Position numbers and translations under genes: made by a program | Shown here: positions 7,201 through 10,131 of the stretch, piece by piece | How the letters are laid out: the number at the start of each line of letters is the position of its first letter | Position numbering within the stretch: position 1 is the stretch's first letter | Origin: Eledone cirrhosa | Lineage: Eukaryota | DNA length: 64,000 nucleotides | NCBI GenBank assembly: GCA_964016885.1 | Contig: OZ024743.1 | Location: forward strand, 69,316,001-69,380,000 | Direction: 5' to 3' | The notes under the pieces: model-generated | Seen by the model: only the letters and a program-made list of their open reading frames with translations | What the model was told of the DNA's origin: nothing | Databases searched by the model: none

Positions 7201-7489
7201 ATATATGTGAATATAGACATAGAATATTCGAAAATATTCTGTATGTTTATAATAAACATTTTGAAGACCTAATCGCTATAGAATAGAATACGTCACGTAT
7301 TACAATTAGATTCTCGATAAAAGCAAGGGAAGTAATCTACGCGTTTCATTCTTGTTAGAATTCATCAGGACTACATATCCAGTGCTTTTATCGAGAATGA
7401 CACAGCTAGAGACTTATAGAATACTTAGCTGTGTACAGGAACTGGTTTGAAAGAGCGGTTGCCGGTCCGGCAGAAATTAGAAATTGGAA
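1283..7489 (-). repeat. Tandem array of a 310-bp hammerhead-containing unit, 20 copies (left arm; ribozyme on minus strand)
   Basis: ATTGGAATAAATGCTCTG recurs every 310 bp from 1283 (1593, 1903 ...) and the arm ends at AAATTGGAA 7489. Copies are identical apart from a few SNPs (4698, 4849, 6868). Left end abuts (TA)n. Confidence 0.97.
1442..1484 (-). ncRNA. Type I minimal hammerhead ribozyme (first of 20 minus-strand copies; last at 7332-7374)
   Basis: GTAATCTACGCGTTTCATTCTTGTTAGAATTCATCAGGACTAC is the exact reverse complement of the 7797-7839 motif. Confidence 0.92.
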
Positions 7490-10131
7490 GTCCTGATGAA
7501 TTCTAACAAGAATGAAACGCGTAGATTACTTCCCTTGCTTTTATCGAGAATCTAATTGTAATACGTGACGTATTCTATTCTATAGCGATTAGGTCTTCAA
7601 AATGTTTATTATAAACATACAGAATATTTTCGAATATTCTATGTCTATATTCACATATATATCGCTATTTCAGAGCATTTATTCCAATTTCTAATTTCTG
7701 CCGGACCGGCAACCGCTCTTTCAAACCAGTTCCTGTACACAGCTAAGTATTCTATAAGTCTCTAGCTGTGTCATTCTCGATAAAAGCACTGGATATGTAG
7801 TCCTGATGAATTCTAACAAGAATGAAACGCGTAGATTACTTCCCTTGCTTTTATCGAGAATCTAATTGTAATACGTGACGTATTCTATTCTATAGCGATT
7901 AGGTCTTCAAAATGTTTATTATAAACATACAGAATATTTTCGAATATTCTATGTCTATATTCACATATATATCGCTATTTCAGAGCATTTATTCCAATTT
8001 CTAATTTCTGCCGGACCGGCAACCGCTCTTTCAAACCAGTTCCTGTACACAGCTAAGTATTCTATAAGTCTCTAGCTGTGTCATTCTCGATAAAAGCACT
8101 GGATATGTAGTCCTGATGAATTCTAACAAGAATGAAACGCGTAGATTACTTCCCTTGCTTTTATCGAGAATCTAATTGTAATACGTGACGTATTCTATTC
8201 TATAGCGATTAGGTCTTCAAAATGTTTATTATAAACATACAGAATATTTTCGAATATTCTATGTCTATATTCACATATATATCGCTATTTCAGAGCATTT
8301 ATTCCAATTTCTAATTTCTGCCGGACCGGCAACCGCTCTTTCAAACCAGTTCCTGTACACAGCTAAGTATTCTATAAGTCTCTAGCTGTGTCATTCTCGA
8401 TAAAAGCACTGGATATGTAGTCCTGATGAATTCTAACAAGAATGAAACGCGTAGATTACTTACCTTGCTTTTATCGAGAATCTAATTGTAATACGTGACG
8501 TATTCTATTCTATAGCGATTAGGTCTTCAAAATGTTTATTATAAACATACAGAATATTTTCGAATATTCTATGTCTATATTCACATATATATCGCTATTT
8601 CAGAGCATTTATTCCAATTTCTAATTTCTGCCGGACCGGCAACCGCTCTTTCAAACCAGTTCCTGTACACAGCTAAGTATTCTATAAGTCTCTAGCTGTG
8701 TCATTCTCGATAAAAGCACTGGATATGTAGTCCTGATGAATTCTAACAAGAATGAAACGCGTAGATTACTTCCCTTGCTTTTATCGAGAATCTAATTGTA
8801 ATACGTGACGTATTCTATTCTATAGCGATTAGGTCTTCAAAATGTTTATTATAAACATACAGAATATTTTCGAATATTCTATGTCTATATTCACATATAT
8901 ATCGCTATTTCAGAGCATTTATTCCAATTTCTAATTTCTGCCGGACCGGCAACCGCTCTTTCAAACCAGTTCCTGTACACAGCTAAGTATTCTATAAGTC
9001 TCTAGCTGTGTCATTCTCGATAAAAGCACTGGATATGTAGTCCTGATGAATTCTAACAAGAATGAAACGCGTAGATTACTTCCCTTGCTTTTATCGAGAA
9101 TCTAATTGTAATACGTGACGTATTCTATTCTATAGCGATTAGGTCTTCAAAATGTTTATTATAAACATACAGAATATTTTCGAATATTCTATGTCTATAT
9201 TCACATATATATCGCTATTTCAGAGCATTTATTCCAATTTCTAATTTCTGCCGGACCGGCAACCGCTCTTTCAAACCAGTTCCTGTACACAGCTAAGTAT
9301 TCTATAAGTCTCTAGCTGTGTCATTCTCGATAAAAGCACTGGATATGTAGTCCTGATGAATTCTAACAAGAATGAAACGCGTAGATTACTTCCCTTGCTT
9401 TTATCGAGAATCTAATTGTAATACGTGACGTATTCTATTCTATAGCGATTAGGTCTTCAAAATGTTTATTATAAACATACAGAATATTTTCGAATATTCT
9501 ATGTCTATATTCACATATATATCGCTATTTCAGAGCATTTATTCCAATTTCTAATTTCTGCCGGACCGGCAACCGCTCTTTCAAACCAGTTCCTGTACAC
9601 AGCTAAGTATTCTATAAGTCTCTAGCTGTGTCATTCTCGATAAAAGCACTGGATATGTAGTCCTGATGAATTCTAACAAGAATGAAACGCGTAGATTACT
9701 TCCCTTGCTTTTATCGAGAATCTAATTGTAATACGTGACGTATTCTATTCTATAGCGATTAGGTCTTCAAAATGTTTATTATAAACATACAGAATATTTT
9801 CGAATATTCTATGTCTATATTCACATATATATCGCTATTTCAGAGCATTTATTCCAATTTCTAATTTCTGCCGGACCGGCAACCGCTCTTTCAAACCAGT
9901 TCCTGTACACAGCTAAGTATTCTATAAGTCTCTAGCTGTGTCATTCTCGATAAAAGCACTGGATATGTAGTCCTGATGAATTCTAACAAGAATGAAACGC
10001 GTAGATTACTTCCCTTGCTTTTATCGAGAATCTAATTGTAATACGTGACGTATTCTATTCTATAGCGATTAGGTCTTCAAAATGTTTATTATAAACATAC
10101 AGAATATTTTCGAATATTCTATGTCTATATT
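7489..10131 (+). repeat. Inverted tandem array of the same 310-bp unit, about 8.5 copies (right arm; ribozyme on plus strand)
   Basis: From AGTCCTGATGAATTCT (7489) the sequence is the reverse complement of the left-arm unit, period 310. It ends at ATGTCTATATT (10131), running into (TA)n. Confidence 0.97.
7797..7839 (+). ncRNA. Type I minimal hammerhead ribozyme (representative copy; repeats every 310 bp to 9967-10009, plus a stem-I-truncated copy at 7489)
   Basis: GTAGTC-CTGATGA-ATTCT(AACA)AGAAT-GAAA-CGC-GTA-GATTAC. Stem I is GTAGTC/GATTAC, the CUGAUGA and GAAA core is intact, stem II has 5 bp, stem III is the palindrome ACGCGT. GUA triplet, predicted cut 7833/7834. Confidence 0.92.

What the first reader, a model, noticed from the sequence alone, without database searches (positions are those of the whole stretch)
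7480..7540. Inversion junction and array ends are circularly permuted and none matches the cleavage site
Seen: the left arm starts (ATTGGAA, 1283) and stops (ATTGGAA, 7489) at nearly the same register, i.e. 20 units plus about 7 bp. The right arm starts inside HHR stem I with a 1-bp overlap and ends at a third register (TCTATATT, 10131). Both outer ends have short AT microhomology to the TA tract. Inference: arbitrary registers fit a circular or multimeric template primed by annealing to (TA)n better than a linear monomer that begins at the cleavage site. The flanks are not mirror images, which argues against a fold-back read artefact.
Basis: partly seen in the sequence, partly recalled or inferred. 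Interest (0 to 1): 0.72.

Follow-up and report, generated by a model that had tools for sequence, protein, structure and literature searches.

The report
Two-armed ribozyme insertion with Penelope ends
This back-to-back array of a 310-base repeat with a predicted self-cutting RNA motif is one of over a thousand such insertions whose outer ends sit at two fixed positions rather than random ones, a pattern likely left when a Penelope-type transposon enzyme copied one small RNA circle repeatedly from both sides of a DNA cut.

Summary
The coordinates are right, and no end lies at the ribozyme cleavage site: genome-wide 9,685 sites read through it and 4 differ. The 'arbitrary registers' reading is wrong for the outer ends. 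The genome holds 1,029 and 1,376 exact matches to two fixed ends. On part of C1, 54 of 54 head-to-head end pairs combine one end at unit position 200 with one at 163-174. That offset of about 35 nt is the Penelope-like element (PLE) 'tail'. Only the inner junction is random, with excess microhomology. Both arms carry one haplotype in 63 of 65 loci, 13 of them with private variants. Target duplications of about 12 bp appear where the target is informative. Best reading: a non-LTR retrozyme inserted by PLE two-ended priming with rolling-circle copying of one circle (about 0.65). RNA, cleavage and the partner PLE are untested; the window's own junction was not seen in independent reads. The scan already reported this family at other loci with the same reading.

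The parts
1265..1284 (.). left (TA)n target tract; the last 2 nt are shared with the arm end
   Evidence: sequence
1283..7489 (-). left arm, 20.02 units of the 310-nt hammerhead repeat; RNA-sense 3' end at unit position 200 ('tail-plus' end) faces outward
7489..7489 (.). head-to-head junction of the two RNA-sense 5' ends (positions 194 and 1), 1-bp overlap
   Evidence: not seen in independent runs
7489..7527 (+). first type I hammerhead of the right arm: stem I AGUC/GAUU, CUGAUGA 7493-7499, stem II, GAAA, minimal stem III, predicted cleavage after GUA at 7523
   Evidence: sequence; Rfam HH9 match for the next two units at 23 bits, E = 0.0035, below the gathering score of 52
7489..10131 (+). 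right arm, about 8.5 units; RNA-sense 3' end at unit position 163 ('tail-minus' end; TA tract pairs with 164-174 at 9 of 11)
10132..10150 (.). right (TA)n target tract
   Evidence: sequence

Best explanation
This is one young insertion of a non-coding 310-nt repeat with a predicted hammerhead ribozyme (a retrozyme); its two multimer arms face head to head and end at two fixed template sites, and it was likely made by a Penelope-like RT/GIY-YIG protein that extended both ends of a cut in (TA)n on one RNA circle. Steps: (1) inferred: array transcripts self-cleave at GUA and are ligated into 310-nt circles; (2) inferred from 12-15 bp duplications at 5 loci: a staggered cut in AT-rich DNA leaves two 3' ends; (3) shown as a pattern, enzyme inferred: one end starts at positions 200-207 with about 2 nt of pairing, the other at 163-174 by pairing with AUAUAUAU; (4) inferred: both copy round the same monomer several times, giving clonal arms that are seamless at the cleavage site; (5) shown as a pattern: the two cDNA ends are joined at random registers through 1-5 nt microhomology or short templated inserts.
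For: Fixed ends: 1,029 and 1,376 genome-wide matches. 54 of 54 minus/plus end pairs among 172 ends on C1 0-194 Mb combine one of each type (p about 1e-17). Of 39 loci picked by one end only, 26 have the other type at the far end, 12 are single-armed, 1 is cut by the fetch edge, and none has two ends of the same type. Inner ends are even over the unit and unrelated between arms (Rayleigh p = 0.48). Overlap of 2 nt or more in 32 of 55 insert-free junctions against 18% by chance (p = 4e-11). One haplotype in both arms in 63 of 65 loci, 13 with a variant fixed in both arms and fixed in no other sampled locus; two random loci share a haplotype with probability 0.14. Variants: 181 fixed, 16 partial, 113 singletons in 255 kb. 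Non-fixed variants recur between loci no more than by chance (5 against 5.0), so daughters do not inherit a mosaic array. Fixed substitutions break the predicted fold or hit the core in 6 of 28 cases against 48 of 93 singletons (p = 0.005), which points to selection at the RNA stage. No insertion or deletion at the cleavage join in 815 crossings. Duplications of 12-15 bp at L037, L083, L098, L102 and L163. Loci with RT + GIY-YIG frames exist in this genome; L158 and L162 show the same head-to-head layout with a tail on one arm in (TA)n. A purified PLE extends both strands from two RNA sites that delimit the tail (PMC11167929). Contigs of run X2 show 12 other inversion joints and TA loose ends at positions 174 and 205.
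Against: No RNA evidence was obtained, and cleavage was not tested; 8 of 9 predicted Xenopus retrozymes did not cleave in vitro (10.64898/2026.07.22.740005). No autonomous PLE sharing the unit's 3' region was found among 37 GIY-YIG loci or upstream of 30 sister-family hits. In PMC11167929 ribozyme cleavage was not needed and unprocessed linear RNA was the main substrate. L072 and L101 are mosaic, and L061, L072 and L113 share non-fixed variants in register between arms, which independent copying of one monomer circle does not predict; 69 non-fixed variants in the overlaps are unshared. Arm lengths correlate only weakly (rho 0.30) and inner ends do not coincide, so simultaneous copying is not shown. 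The window's own junction was not found in 4 runs. 14 of 92 loci were scored single-armed (one runs into an assembly gap, one has an 11-nt second arm). X2 joints have sides of only 20-29 letters.
Confidence: 0.65

Rival explanations
1. Same two-ended PLE priming at the two fixed sites, but the template is a long uncleaved linear transcript of a source array, or a short insertion that later grew by unequal exchange and conversion.
For: Unprocessed RNA was the main substrate in vitro (PMC11167929). Variants are shared in register at L061, L072 and L113; variants repeat at a 7-unit period in the window and in L051.
Against: Private variants are fixed in every unit of both arms (for example 25 of 25 units at L078), with few intermediate frequencies. 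No excess of shared non-fixed variants between loci. Arms of up to 27 units would need as many uncleaved ribozymes. Inherited variants respect the fold.
Confidence: 0.2
2. One reverse-transcription event makes one arm. The second arm is copied from the first as DNA (the other target end invades at the AUAUAUAU site), or arises by self-priming on an antisense template as proposed for rotifer PLEs.
For: It would explain the shared haplotype, the in-register variants (3 loci) and the better pairing at the 163-174 site. Self-priming was proposed for head-to-head PLEs (PMC3846280).
Against: Fold-back predicts matching inner registers, but the differences are uniform (1 of 76 equal). Neither arm type is consistently longer (Wilcoxon p = 0.20). 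69 non-fixed variants in arm overlaps are unshared against 10 shared in 4 loci. Both strands are extended on RNA in vitro (PMC11167929).
Confidence: 0.11
3. One reading: a circle or multimer primed by chance annealing to (TA)n at arbitrary registers.
For: The 163-174 end does pair with (TA)n; inner ends are arbitrary; no end lies at the cleavage site.
Against: Two fixed sites, always one of each. The 200-207 site has 1-2 nt of alternation, while other runs of 4 nt (positions 96, 125, 139, 149, 268, 308) are unused.
Confidence: 0.02
4. Assembly or long-read fold-back artefact.
For: The window's junction was not seen in 4 runs; L099 duplicates L055 beside an assembly gap.
Against: Each locus has its own junction, haplotype and asymmetric ends; target duplications exist; an independent contig set shows such joints and both end types.
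Confidence: 0.02

Closest known systems
Metazoan non-LTR retrozymes (Cervera and de la Pena 2020, PMC7229834, passages seen; review PMC7761336, passages seen; Li, Clavereau and Pollet 2026, 10.64898/2026.07.22.740005, parts 1-3 of 5 read, introduction to discussion)
   Same: Type I hammerhead in a 150-450 bp, low-GC, non-coding tandem repeat; target duplications longer than 4 bp; proposed circle-templated multimer cDNA and PLE partner.
   Different: In the passages seen these are described as simple tandem arrays. Head-to-head double arrays, two fixed priming sites used once each, and clonal arms are not described there. RNA circles were shown for coral, mussel and axolotl, but not here.
Endonuclease-containing Penelope-like elements: inverted pLTR with 30-40 bp tail (PMC3846280 and PMC8557442, passages seen; PMC11167929, main text read)
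   Same: Head-to-head inverted copy, tail at only one end, (TA)n targets, two reverse-transcription start sites one tail length apart, downstream of a hammerhead.
   Different: No ORF; both arms are multimers of one 310-nt unit. One start site has clear target pairing, whereas the anole PLE starts without homology. No homology to an autonomous PLE was found.
L1 twin priming
   Same: Both target ends prime cDNA, giving an inversion with RNA 3' ends facing outward and a microhomology junction.
   Different: No poly(A); both start sites are fixed and about 35 nt apart; inversion is the rule (78 of 92 loci); each arm runs past one template length.

Membership tests
metazoan non-LTR retrozyme | type I hammerhead motif in each unit | tested here: met
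   Core, stems I-III and GUA present by inspection; 29 core matches in the window; Rfam HH9 E = 0.0035 but below the gathering score; no fixed variant in the core
metazoan non-LTR retrozyme | tandem units of 150-450 bp, GC under 50%, strongly self-paired | tested here: met
   310 bp, about 34% GC; fold z = -4.4, 0 of 100 shuffles as stable
metazoan non-LTR retrozyme | non-coding | tested here: met
   No frame of 120 aa or more lies within the array; only a microsatellite frame touches its left edge
metazoan non-LTR retrozyme | no PBS or PPT | not tested
   no tRNA-complement search made
metazoan non-LTR retrozyme | target duplications longer than 4 bp | tested here: met
   12-15 bp at 5 of 76 loci; 7 further hits judged spurious; the rest, and the window itself, lie in pure (TA)n
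metazoan non-LTR retrozyme | expressed as self-cleaved linear and circular RNA | not testable with these tools
   no RNA holder listed
autonomous Penelope-like element | RT + GIY-YIG ORF | tested here: not met
   none in the array; present elsewhere in the genome
PLE-mobilised insertion | inverted head-to-head copy with a 30-40 bp tail on one end | tested here: met
   offset 26-44 nt, most often 35; 54 of 54 pairs
PLE-mobilised insertion | AT-rich or microsatellite target | tested here: met
   In the 12 loci picked without regard to ends, 11 end in (TA)n and 1 in AT-rich DNA; later loci were picked by TA-containing patterns
PLE-mobilised insertion | sequence shared with the pLTR of an autonomous PLE | tested here: inconclusive
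   none in 37 of 150 listed GIY-YIG loci (10,597 candidates); the best hit is a sister retrozyme
L1-type twin priming product | poly(A)-primed 3' end | tested here: not met
   ends are internal unit positions joined to (TA)n; the feature itself is recalled

The most novel reading that the evidence does not exclude
A PLE protein dimer holds one ribozyme RNA circle and extends both strands of its staggered cut from two different fixed sites, each subunit rolling round the same circle. The 'tail on one end only' and the inverted copy of Penelope elements would then be the direct footprint of asymmetric two-ended priming, and animal ribozyme satellites would be born full length in one step.
Probability: 0.45. 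Interest if true: 0.75.

Novelty: new variant of a known kind. Interest (0 to 1): 0.57.

Why it matters
How animal retrozymes reach new loci, and how Penelope-like elements make their inverted copies and one-sided tails, are both stated as open in the papers read. More than a thousand very young insertions of one 310-nt template give a clean in vivo record: which sites prime, how the two halves join, and that both halves come from one monomer. This yields sharp in vitro predictions. The parts (retrozymes, PLE tail and inversion, circle-templated model) are all published, and the scan has already noted this family several times, so this locus adds confirmation rather than a new entity.

Tried and rejected
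Rfam at gathering threshold gave 0 matches. No RNA holder listed. Runs X1, X3 and X7 each give one 340-letter contig closing the 310-nt unit, but tandem DNA gives the same contig, so this was not used as evidence of a circle. The raw-read run X23 laid 0 reads from about 1% of the run: no test. The window junction was not bridged in X2, X4, X5 or X7; these may be other individuals, so this is inconclusive. Search for the autonomous partner: 37 GIY-YIG loci compared with the unit, and 30 of 2,830 sister-motif hits checked by tblastn; none is a PLE 3' end. L099 was dropped as a duplicate of L055. For L043, L055 and L071 the end class was taken from the BLAST end because exact extension stopped at an internal variant. 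40 of the 78 two-armed loci were fetched because they were already known pairs, so the 76 of 78 tally is biased; the unbiased tallies are (12 loci). A relation between the two inner registers was tested and not found. Literature searches listed no paper on inverted two-armed retrozyme arrays; subscription papers are largely missing, and supplements (such as Figure S9 of PMC7229834 and those of the 2026 preprint) were not seen.

Full report
Observation. The window holds two arrays of a 310-bp unit, 1283-7489 and 7489-10131, in opposite orientation between (TA)n tracts. Taking position 1 as window 7799, the left arm runs from 200 (outer) to 194 (inner), and the right arm from 1 (inner, 1-bp overlap) to 163 (outer). 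The unit carries a type I hammerhead: stem I AGUC/GAUU, CUGAUGA, stem II, GAAA, a two-pair stem III and GUA at 33-35. Rfam HH9 matches at E = 0.0035, below its gathering score. The monomer folds better than all 100 shuffles (z = -4.4).

The family. An exact 31-nt core pattern has 3,924 matches in the 3.0-Gb genome. An 18-nt pattern across the cleavage site has 9,685 matches; only 4 sites differ at the next base. Two of the 4 are internal substitutions in L051; the other two were not resolved, though they lie in arrays with the usual ends where these were reached. Scaling by the sampled haplotypes gives roughly 18,000 units, a rough estimate. The first 100 matches fell in 12 loci, picked without regard to ends. 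Ten are head-to-head double arrays like the window, and 21 of their 22 RNA-sense 3' ends lie at 163-174 or 199-208.

Outer ends are fixed and paired. Patterns for the end at 200 and for the end at 163-174, each joined to TA, have 1,029 and 1,376 matches. On C1 0-194 Mb, 172 listed ends form 54 minus/plus pairs within 25 kb. All 54 combine one end of each type (p about 1e-17). I fetched 40 of the 47 remaining pairs under 9.3 kb and 40 of the 64 unpaired ends. After dropping one duplicate, the 39 loci picked by one end gave 26 mixed pairs, 12 single arms, 1 cut by the fetch edge, and no like pair. Exact ends in the 78 two-armed loci cluster at 200 (55), 202 (9), 205 (5) and 207 (4), and at 165 (44), 174 (21) and 163 (7). 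The lower site is the unit's longest AU-alternating run, and the range of ends reflects how far the target pairs with it. The upper site has only 1-2 nt of alternation. So annealing explains one site, not both.

Inner junctions are random and microhomology-joined. The 156 inner ends are even over the unit (chi-square p = 0.30; Rayleigh p = 0.04, a weak bias). None is at 36, and the two arms' registers are unrelated. Of 76 simple junctions, 55 have no insert; 32 of these overlap by 2 nt or more against 18% expected. The longer inserts are mostly pieces of the unit itself. The window's 1-bp overlap and its near-whole number of units are unremarkable.

One template per insertion. Variants are nearly always fixed across all units of both arms. 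The arms agree in 63 of 65 loci, which fall into 24 haplotypes; 13 loci have a variant fixed in both arms and fixed in no other sampled locus. Non-fixed variants do not recur between loci beyond chance. There is no indel at the cleavage join in 815 crossings, which argues against template jumping between linear monomers. Fixed substitutions spare the predicted structure more often than singletons (6 of 28 damaging against 48 of 93, p = 0.005). Against a clean picture: L072 switches haplotype after two units at both outer ends, L101 is mosaic, L061 and L113 share a variant in register, and the window shares C44A out of register. Conversion, assembly error or a multimer template could each explain these.

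Link to Penelope-like elements. Five loci with interrupted targets show direct duplications of 12-15 bp. PLE insertions are described as head to head with a 30-40 bp tail often at one end only, and with (TA)n bias in some clades (PMC3846280; PMC8557442). A purified anole PLE cuts and extends both strands and starts at two RNA sites that delimit the tail; ribozyme cleavage was not required there (PMC11167929). This genome has many GIY-YIG loci (150 scored of 10,597 candidates), some with RT in the same frame. L158 and L162 show a 62-nt tail on one arm in (TA)n. The specific partner was not found. An older sister retrozyme family (2,830 motif matches) shares unit positions 94-189 at 78-82% and ends at the homologous two sites, which marks this region as the likely recognition element.

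Independent data. Contigs of run X2 show 12 inversion joints at other registers, with overlaps of 0-5 nt but short sides, and TA loose ends at positions 174 and 205. The window's own junction was not bridged in four runs.

Comparison and verdict. It meets the sequence criteria of a metazoan non-LTR retrozyme and works like a PLE-made insertion; it is not an autonomous PLE. The circle-templated model and the PLE partner were proposed before (PMC7229834; PMC7761336; 10.64898/2026.07.22.740005). Seven searches listed no description of two-armed retrozyme arrays with paired fixed ends; supplements were not seen. Earlier notes of this scan reach the same reading at other loci; I reached it before that look-up and do not count them as support. 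Interest 0.57; new variant of a known kind.

Noticed in passing
L128:2439-2890; L167-L196: Older sister retrozyme family (unit about 315 nt, 2,830 motif matches) shares the 3' half of the unit but has a different hammerhead half; same two end sites, mostly short arms.
   Followed up: partly
L032 and L163, junction at unit positions 285/48: Two separate loci have the same inner junction, with a 16-nt overlap that is the unit's own long stem; long homology may direct some joins or later deletions.
   Followed up: no
L072: Both arms carry one family haplotype in the outer two units and another further in; assembly misjoin, re-priming after a central break, or a chimeric template.
   Followed up: partly
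window 4698 and 6868; L051: Rare variants repeat at a period of exactly 7 units in two loci, which suggests 7-unit duplications after insertion.
   Followed up: no
L152:2760-6025; L155:2058-5655: Near-perfect palindromic PLE insertions (98.6-99.7% identical arms) with GIY-YIG frames on both strands.
   Followed up: partly
L091, inner junction: 272 bp of unrelated sequence lies between the two arms.
   Followed up: no
window 11947-12378: 143-aa open frame that looks by eye like the middle of a PLE protein; no Pfam match at E 0.01.
   Followed up: partly
window 47405-64000: At least 479 copies of a 34-bp G-rich satellite running to the window end.
   Followed up: no
window 1-50 and 22729-22792: Short repeat with the motif GTCGAAACGGC next to TA tracts, seen also beside L175 and L192; another abundant small element.
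   Followed up: no
The unit is held by 20 public runs from 17 studies under many organism codes; only X2, X4 and X5 (one sample) look like deep genomic data among the 7 runs laid.
   Followed up: partly
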